64,000 bases of DNA from Parcubacteria group bacterium Gr01-1014_13 (GCA_007376295.1 VMGB01000002.1:2843-66842), one strand, 5' to 3'. Positions 8,440 to 17,156 are shown, numbered from the stretch's first letter. The notes: generated by a model not told the origin, from the sequence alone. Made by a program: numbers and translations.

Positions 8440-8705
8440 TGCCTAACGATCGCTCGTCTAGGCCTACGGCAACTTTGCCGGGAGAACAGGAGGCAACGTG
8501 AACAGTATCCGCGGACCGACGAACATCAACCATGCCAATCATAACGCGAACTCGATCTCGTTCAATCTCGGCTAGCTCGACCTCGTCGACGCCGGCTCCG
8601 GCCTTGGCACAATTCCTCATTCTGAGGAGCTGAGCGCCACGGCCCCCAACCCCAGGAGGGTGACAAAGTGTCTTCGGACACCGCGTCGCCCTCCTCTTTT
8701 ATTTC
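8440..8705 (+). ncRNA. GC-rich (about 58%) self-contained transcription unit A: candidate sRNA or short-ORF mRNA (26-aa ORF with AGGAGG-GTG at 8498..8575), unclassified
   Basis: Promoter upstream. Strong terminator GGAGGGTGAC...GTCGCCCTCC with an inner UUCG hairpin plus T-tract at 8655..8705. GC content far above the flanking DNA. Confidence 0.35.
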
Positions 8706-8762
8706 ACGCTACTTGCGTGCTTTTTTTATTATGCTACACTACACTGTGTAGTATTTATTTTT

Positions 8763-9143
8763 ATGTTAAAAAATAGCATTCAATCTTTGGGCAGTTTGGA
8801 AGAAGAGATAATGCAAATTATTTGGAAAGAAAAAAACGTATCCGTACGTTTTATTTTTGATAAAATAAAAACAAAACGGCCAATTGCCTATACTACTGTC
8901 ATGACTATAATGTCACGCCTGCATACCAAAGGAATTTTAAACCGGCAACAGCAAGACGGTGCATATATTTATTCCCCGGCCCAAAGCAAAGAAAAGTTTT
9001 TAGAAAAAATTTCCGAAAAAATAATAAAAAATCTGATAAATAGTTATGGCGATGTGGCTGTAGCGCAATTTATCGATATTATTGAAGCGAGTCACTTAAA
9101 AAAATCTTCCGACTGGCAGAAAAGATTAAAAAAAATCAAATAA
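8763..9143 (+). CDS. BlaI/MecI/CopY family transcriptional repressor
   Basis: N-terminal winged helix (EEEIMQIIWKEKNVSVRFIFDKI...YTTVMTIMSRLHTKGIL) typical of penicillinase-repressor family proteins. Confidence 0.8.
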   Translation: MLKNSIQSLGSLEEEIMQIIWKEKNVSVRFIFDKIKTKRPIAYTTVMTIMSRLHTKGILNRQQQDGAYIYSPAQSKEKFLEKISEKIIKNLINSYGDVAVAQFIDIIEASHLKKSSDWQKRLKKIK

Positions 9144-9144
9144 T

Positions 9145-10206
9145 ATGCGTGCCAGCCTGCGAATAAAATCAAATTTGCTTTTTTTTCAAATTGTTTCTTT
9201 GGGAACAATCATATTTTTATTATTTGCCGGTCTGATTTTCAAAATTTATAACTATATTTTTTCCGCCACCGGTGAATTCGCTTTGGATAAAGCTAACGCG
9301 GCTTGCGGATGCACAACATTTGCTTCGCCAAACCACACTACTCTTATCGGCTTTCTTCTTTTTGTTGGTGCGGCTCTGGCACTGACACTAATCATCGCAG
9401 CCGGCCGGGTAATTTTTTCCACTATTAAAACAAACAGATTTGTTCGGTTTAAAAAAACAAAACTGACTCAAAAATCTTTTAAGTTAGCCCAAATTACGGA
9501 TATACTTGGCATTACCAGCAGAGTAGAAGAAATTGCCAGCAATGACCCAACTATCTTTTGCTACGGACTAATCAAACCAAAAATCTGCGTTTCGTCTAAA
9601 GTCGTAGATTCCCTCAGCTCTGCCGAATTGCGAGCAGTGTTAAGGCATGAAACTCAACATATGATCTCACGTGAACCAGCTAAATTACTGGTAATCAAAT
9701 TCATTAATACCTTCCGATTTATTCCGGGGATCAAAAACCTCACAAAAAAATATTTATCTTTTTCTGAACTAGCCGCCGACGAACTTGCCACAAACAATTT
9801 TACAGAAAAAACAGACCTGGCGCGGGCTATGAGCAAAATTTTGGCGCTTGAAGAAAAAACAATCATCCAAAAAGGTATGGCACTTTCCTTTTTCAGTCAA
9901 ATTACCGAAGACCGGGTGCGTGTGTTGAGTGAAAACGACTACATTCCAACATTTAGCCGAGAAATTATAAAAGTTTCTTTGGGTATTGCCGTAGCTATCG
10001 CGATATTTTTTTATTTCTCTTCCGAAATTAAAGCGCAGACAAATTATACCAAACAACTTTATGCAAATTCCCCGTGCATTAACCAAGAACTCAGACCTGA
10101 GCGATGTGAAAATGGCTGGACCAATTGTAAAAACCAAATTTTTCACAAAAAAAATATTTCCTGCAAAAATAACAACGTGTGGATAACTAATACTTTGACA
10201 AAATAA
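9145..10206 (+). CDS. BlaR1-like M56 family membrane metalloprotease (no sensor domain)
   Basis: Multiple TM helices. HExxH zinc motif (LRHETQHMISREP). 1-nt gap to the upstream blaI-like gene. 353 aa, with no beta-lactam sensor domain visible. Confidence 0.65.
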   Translation: MRASLRIKSNLLFFQIVSLGTIIFLLFAGLIFKIYNYIFSATGEFALDKANAACGCTTFASPNHTTLIGFLLFVGAALALTLIIAAGRVIFSTIKTNRFVRFKKTKLTQKSFKLAQITDILGITSRVEEIASNDPTIFCYGLIKPKICVSSKVVDSLSSAELRAVLRHETQHMISREPAKLLVIKFINTFRFIPGIKNLTKKYLSFSELAADELATNNFTEKTDLARAMSKILALEEKTIIQKGMALSFFSQITEDRVRVLSENDYIPTFSREIIKVSLGIAVAIAIFFYFSSEIKAQTNYTKQLYANSPCINQELRPERCENGWTNCKNQIFHKKNISCKNNNVWITNTLTK

Positions 10207-10254
10207 TTCTCTTCTACTACAATACGTAGTAGATATATAAATAATATAAAAATT

Positions 10255-10989
10255 ATGAAACTTCCGTTTCTAGAAAATAAAAAAAATGTTTTAAACTTGG
10301 TGCTATTGGGTCTACTCACAACTTCTATAGTGACCAACCAAACAGTTCTGGCTAATACTAAAAAAATAATTGGTGTAAATCATGGAGTTTTATCATCAAT
10401 CGGCTCAATTAAACTATTTAGCAACACAAAACTTACTGGTAACCTGTCAGAAGATGCCACTAAGATTTCATTTAAACAGGGCATACCCGAAAAATACGGC
10501 CCGGAATTAAATGTTAATTTTGACCAAGTACAGGGTGCTATAGACATTTTGAAACAATATGATCCTGGCTATGGCAGACAAAAAATTTCTTTGGCCGGCG
10601 AAGAAAAACAACGCTACATTAACGTCGGACGAAAAATATCCTGTGAATATTGCTGTGGAGTTGATGGTATTGTCTTTGCAAACGGAGAAGCCGCTTGTGG
10701 TTGCGCTCATTCCCAAGCAATGCGCGGTTTGGCAGCTTATTTAATAAAAAATCACGGCCCAGAATATACGGACGACCAAATTTTAAGAGAACTAGCCGCC
10801 TGGAAGGGTCGTTATTTCCCTAAACAAATGGTACAAAAAACCATGGACCAAATCCAAAGCGGTAAATATACTCCTGATATAGCCGCCCTGCTCTTAGATG
10901 TAAAGCTGCCAAAATATGGAGCAAATGACATCAAATCACCTGCGCCGTCTGACTTAGAAAATGCGCCAGGCATGGTGGGCGGATGTTAA
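10255..10989 (+). CDS. secreted Cys-rich protein ending in ...ENAPGMVGGC
   Basis: Signal peptide. Cys cluster CEYCCGVDG...ACGCAHS. The C-terminal nonapeptide is shared with the next ORF. Confidence 0.5.
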   Translation: MKLPFLENKKNVLNLVLLGLLTTSIVTNQTVLANTKKIIGVNHGVLSSIGSIKLFSNTKLTGNLSEDATKISFKQGIPEKYGPELNVNFDQVQGAIDILKQYDPGYGRQKISLAGEEKQRYINVGRKISCEYCCGVDGIVFANGEAACGCAHSQAMRGLAAYLIKNHGPEYTDDQILRELAAWKGRYFPKQMVQKTMDQIQSGKYTPDIAALLLDVKLPKYGANDIKSPAPSDLENAPGMVGGC

Positions 10990-11030
10990 AAATAATTGAA
11001 ATAATGAATAATTAAAAATAATTTAAAAAT

Positions 11031-11330
11031 ATGCACGACCACACAACAAATCAACAACCAATGCCGGAAAATAACACCCCTCACAACGAATTGGAAGCAA
11101 TAAAAAATGAAGTCACTGCTAAAATGGCAGAAACCAAGGATAAAAATTTACCTTGGGGAAATATTACTGTCACAGTTATTTTAGCAGCGCTTACGCTGAT
11201 GTCTGTGGGACAAACTGTAGAATCTGTTTATATCTTCAACAAACTAAAATCCGGCAATATTGGTCCATCGACTGGCGCGCCGCAGGCGAACTCACCACAG
11301 AACGCTCCGGACATGGTGGGTGGTTGCTAA
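11031..11330 (+). CDS. small membrane-anchored protein ending in ...QNAPDMVGGC
   Basis: One TM helix. Identical NAP-x-MVGGC C-terminal tail, but the body is unrelated to 10255..10989. Confidence 0.5.
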   Translation: MHDHTTNQQPMPENNTPHNELEAIKNEVTAKMAETKDKNLPWGNITVTVILAALTLMSVGQTVESVYIFNKLKSGNIGPSTGAPQANSPQNAPDMVGGC

Positions 11331-11344
11331 AATAAGATTTTATT

Positions 11345-12178
11345 ATGCAAGAAAATACTAAAGACGAATTAAAAATAAATCACCGATTTCTAATGGCGGT
11401 TTCTGCAGTAATATTTTTGGGTACGGCCGTTACTACCGCACTATTTGTCAAAAACAATGACGTTTTAAATAAAAAATTAGCGCAAACAGCTGAAACCAGC
11501 CGCCCAGCCAACTTAGAACTAGTGATGATAAATGACAAAACTTGCCCAGATTGTTTCGACACAGCCGCCATAATTAATCAAATAAAAAAAGAGGGCGTAA
11601 AAATTGATTCCGATAAGAATATAGATCGCTCTAGTGACGAAGGCAAACAACTAATTGCAAAATTTGCTATAAAAAAACTACCAACATTTTTGGTAAAAGG
11701 GGAATTGAAAAAAAATTCCGTCTTAGCCAATTTCTTTTCTCAGGCTGGAGATACAATTGATGATACTTTTGTCTTTAGACAAGTAGGCGGGCCATATTTT
11801 GATACAGCTACTAACAAAGTAAAAGGCAAAGTTAATTTGGTTTTAATTACAGATGTTACCTGCACCCAGTGTTATGATGTTGCCCAACATGAAGCAATTT
11901 TGAAACAATTTGGCATTACCACTGCAGCAAAAGTAGCGGATATAAAATCAGATCTTGGTAAAGCGTTAATAAAAGCTTATGGTATAAAAATGGTTCCGGC
12001 TTTCGTGCTAACTGGTGAAATAAAAGAATATCCTAGTTTGACATCAGTCTGGTCTCAAGTCGGTTTTGTAGCCAAAGACGGTGCTTATGTCTTTACCAAA
12101 GGCGTACCATTTATGGGTACTTACAAAGACCTCGCTACCAACAAAGTGGTAACTCCTGCGCCAGAAACATCTAACTAA
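11345..12178 (+). CDS. membrane-anchored tandem thioredoxin-like (DsbA/TlpA-like) protein, CxxC motifs CPDC and CTQC
   Basis: N-terminal TM. Two repeated domains of about 120 aa, each with a CxxC and the thioredoxin-fold pattern (KKLPTFLV / KMVPAFVL). Confidence 0.6.
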   Translation: MQENTKDELKINHRFLMAVSAVIFLGTAVTTALFVKNNDVLNKKLAQTAETSRPANLELVMINDKTCPDCFDTAAIINQIKKEGVKIDSDKNIDRSSDEGKQLIAKFAIKKLPTFLVKGELKKNSVLANFFSQAGDTIDDTFVFRQVGGPYFDTATNKVKGKVNLVLITDVTCTQCYDVAQHEAILKQFGITTAAKVADIKSDLGKALIKAYGIKMVPAFVLTGEIKEYPSLTSVWSQVGFVAKDGAYVFTKGVPFMGTYKDLATNKVVTPAPETSN

Positions 12179-12183
12179 CTTTT

Positions 12184-12684
12184 ATGAATGGTAATAACCA
12201 AAAATCCTCCCCTGTAGTTTGGATTATTATCGGTTTAATTACCGTTGCTGTTGTATTTCTTATTTTCAAGAGCACAAACGCTCCAGAGCGGCCACCTAAA
12301 ACAAATAGAGAAGTAGCTATGATTTGTACCACAGATATGGCTACCCAATTTCATATCCATCCTAATCTAAAAATTATAATCAATGGCCAGGCACAAGAAC
12401 TCCCCACAAATATCGGCATTAGTAATAGCTGTATGAATCCGCTTCATACTCATGATGACAGCGGAAAAATCCACGTTGAATCACCAGAAAAAAGAGATTT
12501 TACTTTGGCTGATTTCTTTGCCGTTTGGAAAAAAACTTTCACCAAAGACCAGATCCTAAATTACAAAGTTGACGAAACACACACTATCCGTGAAACAGTA
12601 AATGGTGTTGAAACAAAAGATTACGAAAATACCGTGCTTTATGATGGAGACCAAATAATTATCTACTACGAAGAAAAAAAGTAA
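12184..12684 (+). CDS. membrane-anchored extracytoplasmic protein with a His/Cys/Met cluster (HIHP...SCMNPLHTHDD...H), putative metal-binding
   Basis: N-terminal TM, then a beta-rich domain with H-x-H, C-M-x-x-x-H-x-H motifs. Confidence 0.4.
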   Translation: MNGNNQKSSPVVWIIIGLITVAVVFLIFKSTNAPERPPKTNREVAMICTTDMATQFHIHPNLKIIINGQAQELPTNIGISNSCMNPLHTHDDSGKIHVESPEKRDFTLADFFAVWKKTFTKDQILNYKVDETHTIRETVNGVETKDYENTVLYDGDQIIIYYEEKK

Positions 12685-12685
12685 T

Positions 12686-13171
12686 ATGATGTTGCTGCAA
12701 ATTATTACCTCTGTTTTAAAAAGAAAAAAATACGGCCTTATTGCGCTGGGCGCGGGAATTATAATGGCCGGACTTTCGTATTATCTTACAATTGTAAATG
12801 TGGCCTTCCATAGTTTCTCAATTCTTTTACAGATGGACGGACCATTATTTACCACCGTTTCCTTTGCGCTTTCTCTGGCTATTTCGGCGCTATTTGGAAT
12901 CTACCTGGGGTTAATTTTTTTTAGACATGACCTGATGAAAGGCAATAAAAATGCCAAAGCAATGGCATCTGGCTTAGGAGGTACTATTGCCGGGGTTGTC
13001 GCTTCAGCCTGCCCTACTTGCGGAGCGCCCTTACTAGCTTTGTTTGGCGCGCCTTTAGGCCTGATGGCTCTGCCTTTTCAAGGATTGGAAATTAAAGTTG
13101 TGAGTATTTTACTTCTACTTCTTTCTGTTTATCTTCTAGCTCAGAGTATAGAGAAAAAATTGAATTGTTAA
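12686..13171 (+). CDS. integral membrane protein with an intramembrane CPTC (CxxC) motif, possibly a VKOR/DsbB-type thiol oxidoreductase or metal transporter
   Basis: 4-5 TM helices. ASACPTCGAPLLALFGAP within a TM segment. Start overlaps the stop of the upstream gene. Confidence 0.35.
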   Translation: MMLLQIITSVLKRKKYGLIALGAGIIMAGLSYYLTIVNVAFHSFSILLQMDGPLFTTVSFALSLAISALFGIYLGLIFFRHDLMKGNKNAKAMASGLGGTIAGVVASACPTCGAPLLALFGAPLGLMALPFQGLEIKVVSILLLLLSVYLLAQSIEKKLNC

Positions 13172-13240
13172 AACCGACCGGACAAATCCAAATCCCAATC
13201 CAAAACCGCTGACATCCGAATCCAAATTCCAAATCCAAAT
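13172..13240. repeat. degenerate CCAAATC heptamer microsatellite between convergent genes
   Basis: ...caaatccaaatcccaatccaaaacc...atccgaatccaaattccaaatccaaatc... Confidence 0.6.
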
Positions 13241-14347
13241 CTATTTCTGTTTGCGCGAGAGGACGAGACGAACGGCAATATCCGGATTAGCAAAGACACG
13301 CCAGTAGTCGCCTACGCGAGCAGCCCCACCATCATCACGGTCGCGGCCAATAAGGCCGTGACGGTCATCGACCCCAAGAAAATAATTATCAAAATTGGTC
13401 CAAAGATCTTTTTGACCCCAGCCTTGAGCTGACGCTAGTCGGGCATATTCGTCTTGTCTAATGGGGCGAAATTCAAATTGTTCAGGGTCGCATTTTAGTT
13501 TATTTAGGATTTCTTTGTGTTTTTTGGTGGGAATACGTTTGGCCGGATCTCCTTCCCAGAGGGCGGTGTCTAGGTCTTGTCGGCGGATATTTACCGCGCT
13601 ATCAGCAGACTTTCTGCCATGTTGATTGGCCAGCTCTGGAGGAAGCAGGGCTTTTAAAAGTTTGGATGTGTGAGATTTTTTGGCTTTTTTATCTTCATAG
13701 TCTTGTTCTGTCCAGTTATCTACAAAAAGAATTTCGTCTTCTTGAAAACGAGGAGCGGCAGACTGCCTGTCTGCTCCTTCTAAATTAGAGACAATTCTGT
13801 TTTGGGCTAATTGTTGTAGATACCAAAAATCGTTTGGCGGCACACAGGGCATGGAAAGGTTAGGACATTCTTTTTTCCAATTCTTGATAAAGGCTTGTTG
13901 ACCCTGTTCTGTATTTATATCCATCTTGTTGTTTATCACTTCTTGCAACAGACGCTCGGCAGCTTCGCTGCCGCGGATAATACTTAATTCTAGATTATAT
14001 TCTTCTTTGGCTTTTTCATAGTCTATATTATTGGTTTCAGGGTCGGATTGAAGAGCGGCGGCGGCTTCTTCATCAGTAAGTGTTAAAGAATATTGCGAAC
14101 GCAATTTGTCTAATTTTTCTTTAATTATTTTTGGTTCTGGCCAAATTTTTTGATCTATATATTGGAGAATGATATCTGCCTTGGTGGAGTCAAAGCTATT
14201 TAGAAATTCAAAATATTCGGCTGTGTCGGTTTTCACAACTCCCAATTCCTCTAATTTATCATGGAGTACGTGATGCTCCGGAGAGAATTTGGCAACTTCG
14301 ACTTGGATTTTTTGAGATTCGGGGTTAAATTCTTGGGATTCGGACAT
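13241..14347 (-). CDS. hypothetical protein (368 aa), acidic and hydrophilic
   Basis: Long ORF with typical host codon usage. No recognisable motif. Confidence 0.5.
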   Translation of the reverse strand: MSESQEFNPESQKIQVEVAKFSPEHHVLHDKLEELGVVKTDTAEYFEFLNSFDSTKADIILQYIDQKIWPEPKIIKEKLDKLRSQYSLTLTDEEAAAALQSDPETNNIDYEKAKEEYNLELSIIRGSEAAERLLQEVINNKMDINTEQGQQAFIKNWKKECPNLSMPCVPPNDFWYLQQLAQNRIVSNLEGADRQSAAPRFQEDEILFVDNWTEQDYEDKKAKKSHTSKLLKALLPPELANQHGRKSADSAVNIRRQDLDTALWEGDPAKRIPTKKHKEILNKLKCDPEQFEFRPIRQDEYARLASAQGWGQKDLWTNFDNYFLGVDDRHGLIGRDRDDGGAARVGDYWRVFANPDIAVRLVLSRKQK

Positions 14348-14417: not shown

Positions 14418-17156
14418 CTACTTCATTTCACCCCAACTGCGGTTGATACTAATACCAACTTTTACCGGTACACGCAGAGTCACCACATTCTCCATTATAC
14501 TTTTTACCAGATCGGCAACTTCGTCGGCCAATTCTTTTTTTACTTCCAAAACCAATTCGTCGTGTACCTGTAAAAGTATTTTGGCCTGACTTAGAGATTT
14601 ATTTTTATTATCTTTTATTTTTTTATGCACTTCAATCATCGCCATCTTCATCAAATCCGCGGCTGTACCCTGTATTGGATGATTTACAGCCATGCGTTCA
14701 GCAGCTGCCCGCATCTGAAAATTAGTTGCGTTTAATTCTGGCAAATAACGGCGGCGGCCAAACAAAGTTTCGCAATAACCTTCTTTTTTAGTAAATTCCA
14801 AAGTCCGGTCTATATATTCCCGCACCCCGCTAAACGCCTCAAAATATTTTCTGATAAAATCTTTGGCTTCGGCCTGGGAAATACCGGTGCGCCAGCTAAG
14901 CCCATACGAACCCATGCCGTAGAGCACGCCAAAGTTTACTTCCTTGGCTGCATAACGCATCTCTTTGGTTACTTCTGAGAGTGGCACGTTGTTTATGGCC
15001 GCGGCAGTCGCTTTATGAATATCTTCATCGTTGTTAAAAATCTCAATCATGCGCTTGTCTTGGGCTAGCGAGGCCACTATACGCAATTCAATCTGTGAAT
15101 AATCCGCGCTGACCAAAACATTGCCCGGTTCAGCCACAAAGGCCTTGCGTATTTCTCGTCCTAACTCGCTACGAATAGGAATATTTTGCAAATTTGGATC
15201 CAAGCTAGACAAACGGCCAGTAGCAGCCACAGTTTGATTAAAGTGAGAGTGGATTCTGCCGGTTTTTTTATTTATCAAATCCGGCAGTACATCTATATAT
15301 GTATTTTTCAGCTTAGCCAGTTCGCGATAGGTAGAAATCTCTTCGATAATCGGATGCAGACCGCGCATTTTTTCCAATTCTTCAGCTGAAGTAGAGAGAC
15401 CGGTCTTGCCTTTTTTTATACCAGCCACAGAAATATCTAATTTATCAAACAGAACTTCCCTTAATTGTATTGGCGAAGCGATATTAAATTCCATGCCGGC
15501 TAGTTTATATATTTTTTTGGTTAATTTGTCTAAACTTTCTGTTGCTTCAACGGATAATTTTTTTAACATGGTTTTATCTACCGCAATGCCATTTAGTTCC
15601 ATCTCAGCCAAAACATATTCCAACTGCATTTCCATTTTTTTAAACAAACCAAAATTATCAGCTTTTTCCAATTCAATTTTTAATTTTTCTTTGGCCTGAT
15701 TGATTAAAAATATCTCTTCCGCCAAACTTTTTTTATCTATGCCAAACAAACTTGTTTGCGCTGTATTTTGCGGCAGAACTTTTCCCAAAACTTTTAGCAG
15801 TATGCTGGTAATATCGTGCGCTTTACTGCCAGAATTTAATAAATACGAAGCAACCATCACATCAAACATGTCATTTTCTGGAACTAATTCAAAATTGTAT
15901 TGCAAAGTTTTTATTAATTCTTTCAGATCATGACCAACTAATTCTAAACTGCTGTCCTTAAACAAAGGTAAAACTTTTTTTACCATTTTAGCATCAACAA
16001 AAAATACTTCTGACTTAACAGTTACCATTAAACCAAGAAATTCACTATCCAAAACTTCTTTGCCGCTTAAAACTGCCCGGCAAGCAAATGATTTATTTTC
16101 TTTTACTAATTTAATTAATTTTTCCAATTCATTTTCTTTATTTACTTCAGAAAAAATCATTTTTTCTGCACTTTTGTGTTTTCCCTGCTTGTCATGTAGT
16201 TCCGCTTCAGTAGAAAAACCGGGAATTCTTTTTAAAAGTGAAACAAATTCAAACTTTTGGAATAGCTTACTGATTTTCTCCTTATCAAAATCTTTAATTT
16301 CGCAATGCTTAAAATCAAACTTTAAATCGGGAACATCACAATTTATGGTCGACAATTCTTTGCTCATCTTAGCGCTGGCTTCGCCCTCAATCAGTTTGGC
16401 TATCACGCCAGGTTTTAATTCTTTAGCTATTTTTTCTCTATTTTTTAATTGTTTATATATATTATCTATACTCCCAAATTTTAAAATTAATTCGGTTGCG
16501 CTTTTCTCTCCGATTCCAGGCACGCCTGGAATATTGTCTGAAGCATCACCGCGTAAAGCTTTATAATCCACCATTTTTTCTGGTCCAAAACCAAATCTGG
16601 CTTTTACGCCAGCTACATCATAAACTACTACATCGCTAATTCCTTTGCGCAAGGTATATACTTTTGCTTTGTCGCTCACTAGTTGTAAAGTATCCATATC
16701 GCCAGTGACGATAAATACTTCTGTGTCCTTTTCTTTTTCCAATTTTTTTACAATCGTGCCAATCACATCATCGGCTTCATAACCTTTTTTTTCATAAATC
16801 GGCAAATCAAAAGATTCTACCAATTCGTGTACCAAAGGTATCTGATCATATAATGCTTGATCTGCTTTTACCCGCGTGGCTTTGTATTCTTTGTATTGCA
16901 CATGCCGAAAAGTCGGGCCAGACATATCAAAAGTCACGGCAATACAGCTTGGCTGTAAATCTTTCCAAACTTTAAGCAGCATGGAAGCAAATCCATAAAC
17001 TGCATTTACCATTTTTCCATCTTTAGTGGTAAGCGGAGGAATAGCGTGATAGGCGCGATGGATAATGGCGTTGCCGTCGAAAATAATAATTCTTTTCATA
17101 CAAAAAACGAAAAAGTTTAGCAGTACTATTCTACCTTGTTGAATTTTTTTGAGCAA
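14418..17156 (-). CDS. polA: DNA polymerase I (5'-3' exonuclease + polymerase domains)
   Basis: MKRIIIFDGNAIIHRAYHA 5'-nuclease N-terminus and conserved polymerase motifs (RRxAKxxNFGxxYG, YxQIELR, HDELVLE). The likely true start is the internal Met about 19 codons into the ORF (near 17099). Confidence 0.95.
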   Translation of the reverse strand: MLKKIQQGRIVLLNFFVFCMKRIIIFDGNAIIHRAYHAIPPLTTKDGKMVNAVYGFASMLLKVWKDLQPSCIAVTFDMSGPTFRHVQYKEYKATRVKADQALYDQIPLVHELVESFDLPIYEKKGYEADDVIGTIVKKLEKEKDTEVFIVTGDMDTLQLVSDKAKVYTLRKGISDVVVYDVAGVKARFGFGPEKMVDYKALRGDASDNIPGVPGIGEKSATELILKFGSIDNIYKQLKNREKIAKELKPGVIAKLIEGEASAKMSKELSTINCDVPDLKFDFKHCEIKDFDKEKISKLFQKFEFVSLLKRIPGFSTEAELHDKQGKHKSAEKMIFSEVNKENELEKLIKLVKENKSFACRAVLSGKEVLDSEFLGLMVTVKSEVFFVDAKMVKKVLPLFKDSSLELVGHDLKELIKTLQYNFELVPENDMFDVMVASYLLNSGSKAHDITSILLKVLGKVLPQNTAQTSLFGIDKKSLAEEIFLINQAKEKLKIELEKADNFGLFKKMEMQLEYVLAEMELNGIAVDKTMLKKLSVEATESLDKLTKKIYKLAGMEFNIASPIQLREVLFDKLDISVAGIKKGKTGLSTSAEELEKMRGLHPIIEEISTYRELAKLKNTYIDVLPDLINKKTGRIHSHFNQTVAATGRLSSLDPNLQNIPIRSELGREIRKAFVAEPGNVLVSADYSQIELRIVASLAQDKRMIEIFNNDEDIHKATAAAINNVPLSEVTKEMRYAAKEVNFGVLYGMGSYGLSWRTGISQAEAKDFIRKYFEAFSGVREYIDRTLEFTKKEGYCETLFGRRRYLPELNATNFQMRAAAERMAVNHPIQGTAADLMKMAMIEVHKKIKDNKNKSLSQAKILLQVHDELVLEVKKELADEVADLVKSIMENVVTLRVPVKVGISINRSWGEMK

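What the first reader, a model, noticed from the sequence alone, without database searches (positions are those of the whole stretch)
10255..13171. Extracytoplasmic Cys/His-rich gene cluster in which two unrelated proteins share an identical C-terminal tail NAP[G/D]MVGGC
Five same-strand genes encode the following. (1) A signal-peptide protein with a CEYCCGVDG...ACGCAHS cluster. (2) A small single-TM protein. (3) A membrane-anchored tandem thioredoxin-fold protein with CPDC and CTQC active sites. (4) A membrane-anchored domain with an H-x-H / C-M-x3-H-x-H metal-site-like motif. (5) A polytopic membrane protein with an intramembrane CPTC. Proteins 1 and 2 are otherwise dissimilar, yet both terminate in ...NAP(G/D)MVGGC-COOH. 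A conserved terminal peptide ending in Cys grafted onto different proteins suggests a C-terminal sorting, processing or attachment signal, or a shared metal/thiol-handling tag. It may be serviced by the neighbouring thioredoxin/CxxC membrane proteins. I do not recognise this tail as any described sorting motif (LPXTG, PEP-CTERM, GlyGly-CTERM and the like).
Basis: partly seen in the sequence, partly recalled or inferred. Interest (0 to 1): 0.75.

Follow-up and report, generated by a model that had tools for sequence, protein, structure and literature searches.

The report
Shared cysteine-ended tail on two proteins
Two otherwise unrelated membrane-anchored proteins in a stress-regulated gene cluster of ultra-small bacteria and archaea both end in the same flexible peptide tipped with a cysteine; the two tails evolve in step, and they most likely act as mobile thiol "arms" in an undescribed cell-surface redox/metal-handling system.

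The parts
8738..8752 (.). Operator-like perfect dyad ACTACACTGTGTAGT, 11 nt upstream of the repressor gene's start codon (dyad centre about 18 nt upstream)
   Evidence: It is one of only two perfect ACTAC-N5-GTAGT sites in the 64-kb window (chance mean 0.68). The relaxed dyad ACTAY-N5-RTAGT lies within 150 nt upstream of blaI-like genes in 18-21 related loci. A promoter-like TTCACG-18-TATTAT sits at 8703-8732.
8763..9143 (+). BlaI/MecI/CopY-family winged-helix repressor (126 aa) with no cysteines, so no CopY-type metal site
   Evidence: Pfam Penicillinase_R E=2e-25, 89.8 bits against a cut-off of 22.6. NCBIfam CopY_TcrY E=1e-13, below its cut-off. No conserved Cys in 48 homologues. It is linked to P1 in 31 of 42 fully flanked loci.
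9145..10206 (+). BlaR1-like M56 zinc metalloprotease (353 aa, 3 predicted TM). It lacks a penicillin-binding sensor domain and has Cys-rich extracytoplasmic segments (ACGC in loop 1, four Cys in the C-terminal 60 aa)
   Evidence: Pfam Peptidase_M56 E=4e-8, 33.1 bits against a cut-off of 31. H168, E169, H172 and E208 are invariant. C56 is conserved in 41/41 and C54 in 33/41 homologues, and C311, C321, C328 and C340 in about 30/41.
10195..10223 (+). Sigma-70-like promoter TTGACA-17-TACAAT for the P1 operon
   Evidence: It is the best promoter-like match in 8500-13400, 11 of 12 positions. This is a consensus match only.
10216..10230 (.). Second operator-like perfect dyad ACTACAATACGTAGT. It overlaps the -10 hexamer and lies in the 48-nt gap between M56 and P1
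   Evidence: The same dyad lies within 120 nt upstream of P1 in 25 related loci.
10255..10989 (+). P1: N-terminal TM helix or signal, an all-alpha Cys/His-rich domain (invariant C130, C133, C134, C148, C150, H152), a flexible linker, and the tail
10960..10986 (+). Tail of P1: NAPGMVGGC followed by a stop codon
11031..11330 (+). P2: small protein with a variable N-terminus, one TM helix carrying a conserved S..Q..Q motif, a low-complexity linker, and the tail
   Evidence: A tail-bearing small TM ORF lies directly downstream of P1 in 70 of 81 loci and in 57 of 66 metagenome cases with enough upstream sequence.
11301..11327 (+). Tail of P2: NAPDMVGGC followed by a stop codon
   Evidence: Six synonymous codon differences from the P1 tail.
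11345..12178 (+). P3: membrane-anchored tandem thioredoxin-fold protein (CPDC, CTQC)
   Evidence: Thioredoxin-family and PDO/MJ0307 hits, all below curated cut-offs. All four Cys are conserved in 52/53 homologues. Present in 33 of 42 fully flanked loci.
12184..12684 (+). P4: membrane-anchored beta-grasp domain with a conserved His cluster (H57, H59, H88, H90, H97)
12686..13171 (+). P5: 4-TM membrane protein with CPTC in TM3 and a C-terminal Cys
   Evidence: The family has 77 proteins, none annotated, those with a source name all from candidate-phyla bacteria, and no Pfam model. It is present in 21 of 28 bacterial and 0 of 14 archaeal loci. Every bacterial locus with at least 6 kb downstream has P5, a CcdA/DsbD-type protein, or both (8/6/11, none lacking both).

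Best explanation
The tail is a tethered, mobile cysteine "arm". A flexible Pro/Ser/Gly-rich linker ends in a short recognition element ([L/A]-P-x-[M/Q]-V) and a maximally exposed Gly-Gly-Cys-COOH. P1 and P2 both present this arm on the outer face of the membrane.

The arm thiol undergoes reversible covalent chemistry, most likely thiol-disulfide exchange. That could mean a mixed disulfide with a partner cysteine, with the other arm, or with an external oxidant or adduct. It is then recycled by a relay built like the thio-reduction branch of cytochrome c maturation:

1. A membrane electron conduit (P5 in this genome; CcdA/DsbD-type proteins elsewhere).
2. The membrane-anchored tandem thioredoxin P3.
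3. The helical CxxC(C)/CGC domain of P1, possibly CcmH-like, which would dock a Cys-bearing peptide.
4. The arm.

The P1-P2-P3-P4-P5 operon is held off by the BlaI-like repressor bound at the dyad over its promoter. It is switched on when the sensor-less, Cys-rich M56 protease detects the same thiol-reactive stress (oxidant or a thiophilic metal such as copper) and inactivates the repressor.

**Shown:** the conservation, restriction and co-variation of the tail; the gene linkage; the operator and promoter arrangement; and the fold predictions.

**Inferred:** the outside topology, the redox chemistry, the direction of electron flow, the docking of the arm on P1, and the inducing signal.
For: 1. 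The terminal Cys is as invariant as the core cysteines, and G-3 is nearly invariant (A4 invariants G242 and C244). The tail and linker have low pLDDT (61-68) next to a confident domain, which fits a flexible arm.
2. Only P1 and P2 carry the tail. All 150 tail ORFs in 81 loci belong to the P1/P2 module. In 117 tail-first metagenome loci, 188 tail ORFs were 85 P1, about 97 P2-like, 4 fragments and 2 junk ORFs.
3. The two arms co-vary within genomes. Position -5 is identical in 70 of 71 pairs (62 M/M, 8 Q/Q, 1 mixed), and positions -8 and -6 are also above shuffle expectation. Rare variants match too: MAGGC/MAGGC in L042 and QQGGC/QQGGC in L044. In the independent metagenome set, 64 of 67 partners of an M tail are M and none is Q.
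4. Q-type tails are scattered among M-type relatives. Codon identity at identical residues is only 0.49 within genomes against 0.33 between, and only 1 of 71 pairs is fully identical. So selection, not recent gene conversion, keeps the arms matched.
5. Neighbouring genes in 42 fully flanked loci: tandem thioredoxin 33, DUF1573 with an SCGCT motif 30, CcdA-like 23. DUF1573 is listed as a selenoprotein family with a UGC motif (PMC9312934); I take a Sec/Cys pair to mark a redox-active site (my own knowledge).
6. Other island proteins also end in Gly-flanked Cys. A GILT/DsbA-like protein ends GGCGG in 5 loci (L004, L006, L007, L010, L011), and some archaeal DUF1573 proteins end GxFGC.
8. Regulation: Penicillinase_R and M56 hits; two perfect dyads in the window, one over the best promoter match upstream of P1; the dyad upstream of P1 in 25 loci; and conserved extracytoplasmic Cys in M56.
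9. The positive-inside rule favours N-in/C-out for P1 (43 against 11), P2 (36 against 18) and P4 (12 against 2).
10. Precedent: the SoxY carrier arm, with its GGC functional motif (PMC5336275 and PMC11237559).
Against: - There is no biochemical evidence of any kind, and what the arm carries is unknown.
- The CcmH link is weak. Foldseek against the PDB found nothing, hhalign probability is below 1%, and no Pfam CcmH hit appeared in 114 diverse members.
- AlphaFold2 does not dock the tail onto the P1 domain with confidence. No P1-domain column tracks the tail's M/Q state (maximum MI 0.16 of 0.57 bits). So the arm's receptor is not identified and may not be P1.
- The four cysteines C130, C133, C148 and C150 could form a structural Zn(Cys)4 site rather than redox centres.
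- Metal genes are common in the islands: HMA, Cupredoxin_1, CsoR-family, DUF2933 and the His-cluster protein P4. Metal binding could therefore be the primary chemistry.
- No Sec variants of P1 or P2 were found in the sampled loci.
- The outside topology rests only on charge statistics.
Confidence: 0.45

Rival explanations
1. Metal-ligand arm. The terminal cysteinate, possibly with Met at -5 and the free carboxylate, binds a thiophilic metal, most likely Cu(I). The P1 and P2 arms either form a shared two-coordinate S-metal-S site or hand the metal on to the P1 Cys/His cluster, the His-cluster protein P4, or HMA/cupredoxin proteins. The operon would then be an envelope copper (or Zn/Cd/Hg) buffering and detoxification system induced through M56 and BlaI.
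For: - The island includes HMA-DsbD_2-Cupredoxin_1 fusions (14 of 42 fully flanked loci), stand-alone Cupredoxin_1 proteins (15 loci), DUF2933, and CsoR-family repressors (10 loci). About half of the CsoR-family proteins show Cys...His-x3-Cys, which I recall as the Cu(I)-CsoR fingerprint.
- CxxC, CxC and His motifs, and a roughly 170-aa island protein ending DCCKE, are typical metal ligands.
- The repressor belongs to the BlaI/CopY family (PMC7253601).
- A symmetric arm-metal-arm or arm-arm contact would explain why positions -5 and -4 switch together in P1 and P2 with no change in the P1 domain.
Against: - Met at -5 is replaced by Gln in about 13% of family members, so it is not an essential soft ligand.
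- The repressor lacks the CopY CxCx4CxC site; it has no Cys at all.
- The window itself carries none of the HMA, cupredoxin or CsoR genes, yet it keeps P1, P2, P3 and P5.
- Thioredoxin and CcdA-type partners are more constant than metal genes.
- Copper stress and disulfide stress are mechanistically linked, so this rival overlaps the main explanation rather than excluding it.
Confidence: 0.25
2. Signal input for the protease. The C-terminal peptides of P1 and P2 are the ligands, or co-sensor subunits, of the sensor-less M56 protease. The state of the terminal Cys (free, oxidised or metal-bound) decides whether the tail engages the Cys-rich extracytoplasmic loops of M56 and so triggers cleavage of the BlaI-like repressor. 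This would be comparable to C-terminal OMP peptides activating DegS.
For: - M56 here lacks any penicillin-binding sensor domain but has conserved extracytoplasmic cysteines, including a CGC like that of P1.
- P1 is always the gene next to the blaI/M56 pair: downstream on the same strand in CPR, divergent in DPANN with the dyad TGYAAAGCWTTRCA between them.
- The P1 and P2 TM helices carry conserved polar residues (N28/Q29 in P1; S..Q..Q in P2) that could pack against M56.
- One shared receptor would explain the matched tails.
Against: - About a quarter of fully flanked loci have P1/P2 with no blaI or M56 nearby (31 and 29 of 42).
- P1/P2 are themselves under operator control, which is more typical of effectors, although autoregulated sensors exist.
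- No co-variation test with M56 was possible because there are too few Q-type loci.
Confidence: 0.15
3. Sorting, processing or attachment signal. The tail is recognised by a dedicated enzyme that cleaves it, lipidates the Cys, or links it covalently to the envelope.
For: - It is a conserved C-terminal motif with Pro and small residues, superficially like LPxTG or double-glycine (ELxxIxGG) sites.
- It is found in organisms with unusual envelopes.
- The upstream protease also scores against Peptidase_M48 (Ste24/HtpX-like).
Against: - No TM helix or basic tail follows the motif; the proteins end at Cys.
- Only two protein families carry it, and always in the same operon. Sorting signals usually mark many cargo families.
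- No sortase, exosortase, rhombosortase or C39-type gene is among the conserved neighbours.
- The same tail is conserved in bacteria and archaea, whose envelopes and lipid chemistry differ.
- Both proteins already have an N-terminal membrane anchor.
Confidence: 0.08
4. Chance resemblance or a recent local duplication of a 3' end with no function.
For: The two genes are adjacent, so a duplication of the 3' end at the origin of P2 is plausible historically. hhalign also hints weakly at TM similarity (probability 10%).
Against: - There are six synonymous differences in nine codons in the window.
- The tail is conserved across hundreds of species in two domains of life.
- Codon comparisons rule out recent conversion.
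Confidence: 0.01

Closest known systems
SoxY carrier-arm cysteine (SoxYZ sulfur carrier; C-terminal GGCGG 'swinging arm')
   Same: A periplasmic or extracytoplasmic protein presents one Cys flanked by glycines at the very C-terminus of a flexible peptide. The Cys carries pathway intermediates covalently between partner active sites (PMC5336275; 'GGC' functional motif in PMC11237559). One island protein, GILT/DsbA-like, even ends in GGCGG.
   Different: P1 is all-alpha and P2 has no globular domain, whereas SoxY as I recall it is an Ig-like fold paired with SoxZ. There is no SoxY Pfam or NCBIfam hit. No Sox enzymes are among the conserved neighbours. The Cys here is the last residue, and it is preceded by a conserved [L/A]Px[M/Q]V element. 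The cargo is unknown.
CcmH (System I cytochrome c maturation thiol-oxidoreductase) with CcmG and DsbD/CcdA
   Different: No sequence-level support and no Foldseek support. P1 is about twice as large, and has an inserted hairpin with extra invariant Cys and His (CxxCC...CGCAH). No heme-handling Ccm genes are among the conserved neighbours, and no CXXCH client was looked for. The presumed client is the protein's own or its neighbour's C-terminal arm.
BlaI/BlaR1 (MecI/MecR1) proteolytic signal transduction, and CopY-type repressors
   Same: A Penicillinase_R winged-helix repressor and an M56 HExxH membrane protease are encoded together. An inverted-repeat operator containing TAC...GTA half-sites overlaps the promoters. 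This is comparable to the family's TACANNTGTA-type boxes and to proteolytic inactivation of BlaI/MecI (abstracts of PMC7253601 and PMC1935004, listed).
   Different: There is no penicillin-binding sensor domain; short Cys-rich extracytoplasmic segments take its place. The repressor has no CopY metal-binding Cys motif. The regulon is a thiol/metal island, not a beta-lactamase or a copper ATPase. The system also occurs in DPANN archaea, with a different dyad.
Other C-terminal thiol shuttle tails (DsrC C-terminal arm; mammalian thioredoxin reductase GCUG; MerA C-terminal Cys pair; Erv2p CGC tail). From my own knowledge, not tested here
   Same: Each has a flexible C-terminal segment with Cys or Sec next to Gly, which moves substrate, electrons or metal between a buried active site and partners.
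   Different: In those systems the tail belongs to the catalytic protein itself. Here an arm-only protein (P2) carries the same tail as the domain protein (P1), and the two co-evolve.
Scs (suppressor of copper sensitivity) and similar envelope thioredoxin/DsbD systems. From my own knowledge
   Same: It is an operon of a DsbD-like membrane protein plus membrane-anchored or periplasmic thioredoxin-fold proteins, and it protects the envelope against copper-induced thiol damage.
   Different: The Scs system as I recall it has no equivalent of P1, P2 or the tail, and its regulation is different.

Membership tests
C-terminal sorting signals (LPXTG/sortase, PEP-CTERM/exosortase, GlyGly-CTERM/rhombosortase, PGF-CTERM/archaeosortase) | The motif is followed by a hydrophobic TM segment and a basic tail | tested here: not met
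   Both proteins, and nearly all full-length homologues, end at the Cys directly after the motif.
C-terminal sorting signals (LPXTG/sortase, PEP-CTERM/exosortase, GlyGly-CTERM/rhombosortase, PGF-CTERM/archaeosortase) | The signal is present on many unrelated cargo proteins in a genome | tested here: not met
   Only the P1 and P2 families carry it, in 81 loci (about 1.2 Mb) and in 117 tail-first metagenome loci. Whole proteomes were not scanned.
C-terminal sorting signals (LPXTG/sortase, PEP-CTERM/exosortase, GlyGly-CTERM/rhombosortase, PGF-CTERM/archaeosortase) | A cognate sorting enzyme gene is present or linked | tested here: inconclusive
   No such family is among the 25 most conserved neighbour clusters. 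An unlinked enzyme cannot be excluded.
SoxY | SoxY fold and family signature (Pfam SoxY, NCBIfam SoxY models) | tested here: not met
   No hit at E<=0.1 for P1 or P2. The P1 model is all-alpha.
SoxY | A Gly-flanked carrier Cys in a C-terminal arm (GGC motif) | tested here: met
   VGGC-COOH is conserved. The SoxY motif is taken from PMC11237559.
SoxY | SoxZ partner and sox enzyme genes in the neighbourhood | tested here: not met
   They are absent from the conserved neighbour clusters.
CcmH/NrfF/CycL | Sequence membership (Pfam CcmH; LRCxxC signature) | tested here: not met
   No Pfam hit in P1 or in 114 diverse members. The PDB profile search found no CcmH. hhalign against E. coli CcmH gives probability below 1%.
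CcmH/NrfF/CycL | Three-helix-bundle fold with CxxC between helix 1 and helix 2, anchored by a single TM helix | tested here: inconclusive
CcmH/NrfF/CycL | Part of a cytochrome c maturation system (CcmA-I, c-type cytochrome clients) | tested here: not met
   No Ccm heme-handling genes are among the conserved neighbour clusters or in the inventoried loci. The window's other ORFs were compared only with island families.
BlaI/BlaR1-type regulatory pair | Penicillinase_R repressor domain | tested here: met
   E=2e-25, 89.8 bits against a cut-off of 22.6.
BlaI/BlaR1-type regulatory pair | M56 peptidase domain with HExxH | tested here: met
   33.1 bits against a cut-off of 31. H168, E169, H172 and E208 are invariant in 41 homologues.
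BlaI/BlaR1-type regulatory pair | C-terminal extracellular penicillin-binding (transpeptidase-like) sensor domain | tested here: not met
   The protein has 353 aa. After the last TM there are only about 60 Cys-rich residues, with no such Pfam domain.
BlaI/BlaR1-type regulatory pair | Repressor cleaved by the protease on induction | not testable with these tools
   This needs biochemistry.
CopY-type copper repressor | C-terminal CxCx4CxC metal site | tested here: not met
   There is no Cys in the window protein and no conserved Cys in 48 homologues. The CopY_TcrY score of 51.5 bits is far below its cut-off of 121.95.
Thioredoxin-fold oxidoreductase (P3) | Thioredoxin fold with a CxxC active site | tested here: inconclusive
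   There are several thioredoxin-family hits for both halves, all below curated cut-offs. Both CxxC motifs are conserved in 52 of 53 homologues. No structure was predicted.

The most novel reading that the evidence does not exclude
P1 and P2 define a new class of tethered C-terminal cysteine-arm proteins that form a self-contained surface thiol device shared by CPR bacteria and DPANN archaea. The two matched arms pair with each other, through a disulfide or a bridging metal ion. That pairing state is both the stimulus read by a sensor-less BlaR1-type protease and the substrate recycled by a CcmH-like/thioredoxin/CcdA relay. This would be a new signal-perception principle for the BlaR1 family and a new kind of carrier-arm system unrelated to Sox or Dsr.
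Probability: 0.15. Interest if true: 0.85.

Novelty: new variant of a known kind. Interest (0 to 1): 0.68.

Why it matters
CPR bacteria and DPANN archaea are a large, mostly uncultured part of microbial diversity with very small genomes, and few of their envelope systems are understood. This study defines a conserved, regulated gene island with no Pfam or NCBIfam model for its core proteins. It is shared across the two domains.

The island has a testable molecular signature. Two proteins carry a co-evolving Cys-terminated arm, next to a BlaR1-like protease that lacks its usual sensor. If the arm is a thiol or metal shuttle, it extends the "swinging-arm" principle known from SoxY and DsrC to a new fold and setting. 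It would also show how these organisms cope with oxidant or copper stress at their surface, where they contact hosts.

If the arms feed the protease, that would reveal how BlaR1-type receptors can sense something other than beta-lactams.

The operator and promoter pair gives an immediate handle for reporter assays.

Tried and rejected
- **Literal-motif literature search.** "MVGGC" returned only irrelevant hits. "Patescibacteria" plus "BlaR1" returned nothing relevant.
- **Family libraries.** Pfam and NCBIfam have no model for P1, P2, P4 or P5. Scanning 114 diverse P1 members against Pfam at E<=10 showed no recurrent family.
- **PDB sequence searches.** Searches with the P1 profile and with P4 gave nothing meaningful.
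- **Foldseek.** The P1 model against the PDB gave nothing (E>=1). AFDB50 was not available.
- **hhalign, P1 against E. coli CcmH.** The CxxC motifs align in the expected register, but the probability is below 1%, so homology is not claimed.
- **Fusion partners.** Long P1 family members showed nothing informative: one FKBP domain and weak hits, possibly gene-call fusions.
- **CopY/BlaI box.** The strict pattern TACANNTGTA has 3 hits in the window, none at the promoters. TACA-N2-4-TGTA lies upstream of blaI in only 6 of 72 cases. The real conserved dyad is ACTAC-N5-GTAGT.
- **Arm docking on P1.** Co-variation between the tail's M/Q state and P1-domain columns is weak (maximum MI 0.16 of 0.57 bits). 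Docking of the arm on P1 is therefore not supported by this test.
- **Selenocysteine variants.** In-frame TGA at the conserved Cys positions of P1 and P2 gave only out-of-frame noise.
- **Other island families in the window.** None of the extended-island families (DUF1573, CcdA, HMA, cupredoxin, CsoR and others) occurs elsewhere in the window.
- **Is P2 a P1 lacking its domain?** Only the tail and linker align with confidence.
- **Recent duplication or gene conversion.** Rejected by codon analysis.

Full report
**1. Checking the observation**

The five + strand ORFs are present exactly as described.

| Protein | Coordinates | Length | Key features |
|---|---|---|---|
| P1 | 10255-10989 | 244 aa | CEYCCG...ACGCAHS; ends NAPGMVGGC |
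| P2 | 11031-11330 | 99 aa | one TM segment; ends NAPDMVGGC |
| P3 | 11345-12178 | 277 aa | CPDC and CTQC |
| P4 | 12184-12684 | 166 aa | HxH...CMxxxHTH |
| P5 | 12686-13171 | 161 aa | CPTC in a TM segment |

At the DNA level the nine tail codons differ at six synonymous positions plus the one G/D replacement. The identity is therefore in the peptide, not the nucleotides. No other ORF in the 64-kb window ends this way. Profile comparison shows that P1 and P2 share only the tail and linker.

**2. What the tail is**

The window matches Parcubacteria group bacterium Gr01-1014_13. P1 belongs to a family of more than 1116 proteins, all "hypothetical". The family has 267 clusters at 50% identity and is encoded in 493 GTDB species genomes. 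Those genomes cover CPR/Patescibacteria and DPANN archaea (Woese-, Micr-, Aenigm-, Pace-, Iain- and Nanoarchaeota), plus at least one Anaerolineae.

The tail is a family-defining feature:
- Of the 120 closest homologues, 118 end in [MQ][VI]GGC.
- Of 150 diverse representatives, 104 end in VGGC. Most of the rest end in VG[S/D/A/E/K]C, and those without a terminal Cys are mostly fragments.
- In a 114-sequence alignment at 30-50% identity, the only invariant positions are C130, C133, C134, G144, C148, C150, H152, P189, G242 and C244.

The consensus is [L/A/M]-P-x-[M/Q]-V-G-G-C-COOH. It is often preceded by P-S-x-[I/L]-x-[N/D].

In 70 of 81 loci, a small single-TM ORF directly downstream of P1 carries the same tail.

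I then scanned the metagenome collection for the back-translated tail plus a stop codon, a search that does not depend on P1 homology. This gave 188 tail ORFs in 117 loci: 85 P1, about 97 small P2-like TM proteins, 4 fragments and 2 junk ORFs. P2 had P1 immediately upstream in 57 of the 66 cases with enough sequence, and most of the remaining cases had P1 within about 1 kb. The tail is therefore a feature of one two-gene module, not a portable tag on many cargo proteins.

**3. The tails evolve together**

- In 71 P1/P2 pairs, position -5 is identical in 70 (62 M/M, 8 Q/Q, 1 mixed; shuffle mean 56).
- Position -8 matches in 49 pairs (shuffle mean 29), and position -6 in 24 (shuffle mean 10).
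- Rare variants also match: MAGGC/MAGGC in L042 and QQGGC/QQGGC in L044.
- In the independent metagenome pairs, the partner of an M tail was M in 64 of 67 and never Q, although Q makes up about 13% of the family.

Q tails are phylogenetically scattered. The nearest core-domain neighbour of a Q-type P1 is M-type in 23 of 45 cases. Switches are therefore frequent and concerted.

Codon identity at identical tail residues is 0.49 within genomes against 0.33 between genomes. Only 1 of 71 pairs has fully identical codons. Recent gene conversion cannot explain the match.

No column of the P1 globular domain tracks the M/Q state. The simplest readings are that both arms fit the same external site or that the two arms contact each other symmetrically. 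The shuffle controls ignore phylogeny, so the numbers are descriptive. The repeated independent switches are the stronger argument.

**4. Anatomy of the proteins**

*P1.* The AlphaFold2 model has mean pLDDT 85.6. It shows a long N-terminal helix (6-39), a disordered segment, a confident all-alpha domain (60-212) with a small hairpin carrying the Cys cluster, and a low-confidence tail (pLDDT 61-68).

The analogy is apt. CcmH is a single-TM, periplasmic helical CxxC oxidoreductase. It forms a mixed disulfide with a Cys-containing peptide of apocytochrome c. Thioredoxin-like CcmG resolves that disulfide, and DsbD/CcdA supplies the electrons (PMC3884852).

*Topology.* Charge statistics favour N-in/C-out for P1, P2, P3 and P4. 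The archaeal P4 homologue examined (L056) has an N-terminal C2H2 zinc-finger-like segment, by a weak Pfam hit below cut-off, which would also place that end inside.

*P4.* The model has pLDDT 92. It is a beta-grasp domain resembling transcobalamin beta-domains and a "putative metal binding protein". It has five conserved His, and one homologue is fused to an HMA domain.

*P5.* This is a small, unannotated family of 77 proteins; those with a source name all come from candidate-phyla bacteria.

**5. Genomic context and regulation**

Two same-strand genes upstream belong to the unit:
- A Penicillinase_R (BlaI/MecI/CopY-family) repressor at 8763-9143.
- A Peptidase_M56 (BlaR1-like) protease at 9145-10206.

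The protease keeps HExxH and the downstream Glu but has no penicillin-binding sensor. Instead, its extracytoplasmic loop 1 carries a conserved CGC (C56 in 41/41, C54 in 33/41). Its short C-terminal tail carries four conserved Cys. The repressor has no cysteines, so it is not a CopY-type metal sensor.

The perfect dyad ACTAC-N5-GTAGT occurs exactly twice in the window. One copy (8738-8752) ends 11 nt upstream of the repressor gene. The other (10216-10230) sits in the 48-nt gap before P1. That second copy overlaps the -10 hexamer of the best sigma-70-like promoter match in the region, TTGACA-17-TACAAT at 10195-10223.

Across related loci the dyad lies within 120 nt upstream of P1 in 25 loci and upstream of blaI in 18-21. 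Archaeal loci use a different dyad, TGYAAAGCWTTRCA, and all 7 hits fall within 150 nt upstream of blaI, which there is transcribed divergently from P1. The P1-P5 operon is thus predicted to be a direct target of the repressor. The logic of repressor inactivation by the cognate membrane protease comes from BlaI/MecI (PMC1935004), and the related TACANNTGTA box from CopY (PMC7253601).

Linked genes in the 42 loci with at least 4 kb on both sides:

| Gene family | Loci (of 42) |
|---|---|
| blaI-like repressor | 31 |
| M56 protease | 29 |
| Tandem thioredoxin (P3) | 33 |
| DUF1573 (SCGCT motif, often several copies) | 30 |
| CcdA-like | 23 |
| P5 | 21 (bacteria only) |
| HMA-DsbD_2-Cupredoxin_1 fusion | 14 |
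| P4 | 11 |

Every bacterial locus with enough downstream sequence has P5, a CcdA/DsbD-type protein, or both. This fits P5 acting as an alternative membrane redox conduit, but it is only an inference.

Further island members:
- CsoR-family repressors (10 loci).
- Stand-alone cupredoxins (15 loci).
- DUF2933.
- A roughly 170-aa protein ending DCCKE (19 loci).
- A GILT/DsbA-like protein ending GGCGG (5 loci).

DUF1573 is listed as a selenoprotein family with a UGC motif (PMC9312934). I take that to mean its CGC is redox-active. P1 and M56 have the same tripeptide.

The window itself holds only the minimal seven-gene version.

**6. How it most likely works**

I favour a tethered thiol arm. A flexible linker presents a Gly-Gly-Cys-COOH whose thiol undergoes reversible covalent chemistry and is recycled by a relay: membrane conduit (P5, or CcdA-type elsewhere), then tandem thioredoxin (P3), then the P1 CxxC/CGC domain. 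The whole operon would be induced through the Cys-rich M56 protease and the BlaI-like repressor under thiol-reactive stress. The precedents are the SoxY carrier arm (PMC5336275, PMC11237559) and the CcmH-peptide mixed disulfide (PMC3884852).

- *Shown:* conservation, restriction to two families, co-variation, linkage, the operator and promoter layout, and the fold predictions.
- *Inferred:* topology, chemistry, direction of electron flow, the docking site and the inducer.

The main rival is that the arm is a metal (copper) ligand or hand-off element. The HMA, cupredoxin, CsoR and His-cluster genes support this, and a symmetric S-metal-S bridge between matched arms would be elegant. It overlaps the redox model, because copper stress and disulfide stress are coupled.

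A third reading makes the arms the stimulus-receiving element of the sensor-less M56 protease. A sorting or processing signal is unlikely, and chance or duplication is excluded.

**7. Comparison with known systems, and novelty**

The tail is not a member of any described C-terminal sorting class, because no TM or basic segment follows it and it has only two carrier families. It is not SoxY either, because the fold differs and there are no Sox genes. It cannot be assigned to CcmH by sequence.

The regulatory pair does qualify as BlaI/M56 by domain, but it lacks the defining penicillin-binding sensor of BlaR1.

No Pfam or NCBIfam model (the library dates are given in the tool outputs) and no text hit covers P1, P2 or the motif.

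I therefore rate it a new variant of a known kind: a C-terminal cysteine carrier or shuttle arm in a new protein context, with a new arm-only partner. There is a minority chance that it is something categorically new in signal perception.

**8. Verdict**

This is a conserved, cross-domain, regulated and entirely uncharacterised module with an unusual co-evolving feature and clear experiments to run, but no mechanism has been demonstrated.

Noticed in passing
window 8738-8752 and 10216-10230; L001-L047 upstream of the blaI-like and P1 genes: A conserved operator-like dyad, ACTAC-N5-GTAGT, marks both the repressor promoter and the P1 promoter. It occurs exactly twice in the 64-kb window, and the relaxed form ACTAY-N5-RTAGT has 64 hits in 1.19 Mb of related loci, of which 43-46 lie at these two promoter positions. 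Some 'unassigned' copies precede an extra gene inserted between M56 and P1.
   Followed up: yes
L048-L080 (e.g. L055 about 9760-9860, L049, L051, L056, L071): DPANN archaea carry the same BlaI-like/M56 pair, transcribed divergently from P1, with a different palindrome (TGYAAAGCWTTRCA) upstream of blaI (7 of 7 hits). A BlaI/BlaR1-type proteolytic switch in archaea is itself unusual.
   Followed up: partly
L006 9128-9958; also L004 9151-9984, L007 1089-1919, L010 8950-9780, L011 2898-3731, L009 9169-9984: A membrane-anchored GILT/DsbA-like thioredoxin-fold protein with a single-Cys CPYG site lies between M56 and P1, in at least five of these loci preceded by the dyad. It ends ...A(G/A)GCGG-COOH in five loci (GCGN in L009), which is the SoxY-type arm ending. 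This is a third arm-bearing family with a different tail.
   Followed up: partly
L017 17855-18382, L060 2176-2700, L061 11871-12410 and 16 further loci: A roughly 170-aa, apparently soluble helical protein ends ...[V/I][D/N]CC[K/D/G]E-COOH (a vicinal Cys pair at the C-terminus). It recurs in 19 bacterial and archaeal islands and has no Pfam family.
   Followed up: no
L048 5222-5839, L049 237-851, L051 7284-7853, L052 2876-3451, L067 13216-13887: Archaeal DUF1573 proteins in the island end in Gly-flanked terminal Cys (GEFGC, GSFGC, GAGTC). DUF1573 copies carry an SCGCT motif, and the literature lists DUF1573 as a selenoprotein family with UGC.
   Followed up: partly
L017 18491-18766 and 9 other loci (L018, L020, L023, L026, L027, L038, L043, L044, L046): CsoR/RcnR-family metal-sensitive repressors (Pfam Trns_repr_metal, 7e-23) sit in the islands. 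About half have Cys...His-x3-Cys (which I recall as the Cu(I)-CsoR pattern) and the others have His at the last position. Stand-alone Cupredoxin_1 proteins occur in 15 loci.
   Followed up: partly
L076 9578-10456 (Anaerolineae): A P1 homologue outside CPR/DPANN ends EFPEFMPQMVGDC and has no P2 downstream. It belongs to a subfamily with an EFPEF[L/M]PxMVG[G/D/S]C tail (P0136, P0142, P0146 and others). Its neighbours include DUF2933-like and HMA-like ORFs (read by eye, not scanned) and a membrane protein with a CCAHH motif.
   Followed up: no
window 12686-13171 (P5): P5 itself ends in a Cys (...KKLNC-COOH), conserved in 38 of 68 relatives. By the positive-inside rule this end is cytoplasmic, unlike the P1 and P2 tails.
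   Followed up: no
window 13241-14347 (- strand): A 368-aa ORF convergent with the operon has no Pfam or NCBIfam match. DNA polymerase I follows at 14418-17156 on the - strand; I identified it from its sequence (my own reading, not scanned), and it marks the end of the island.
   Followed up: no
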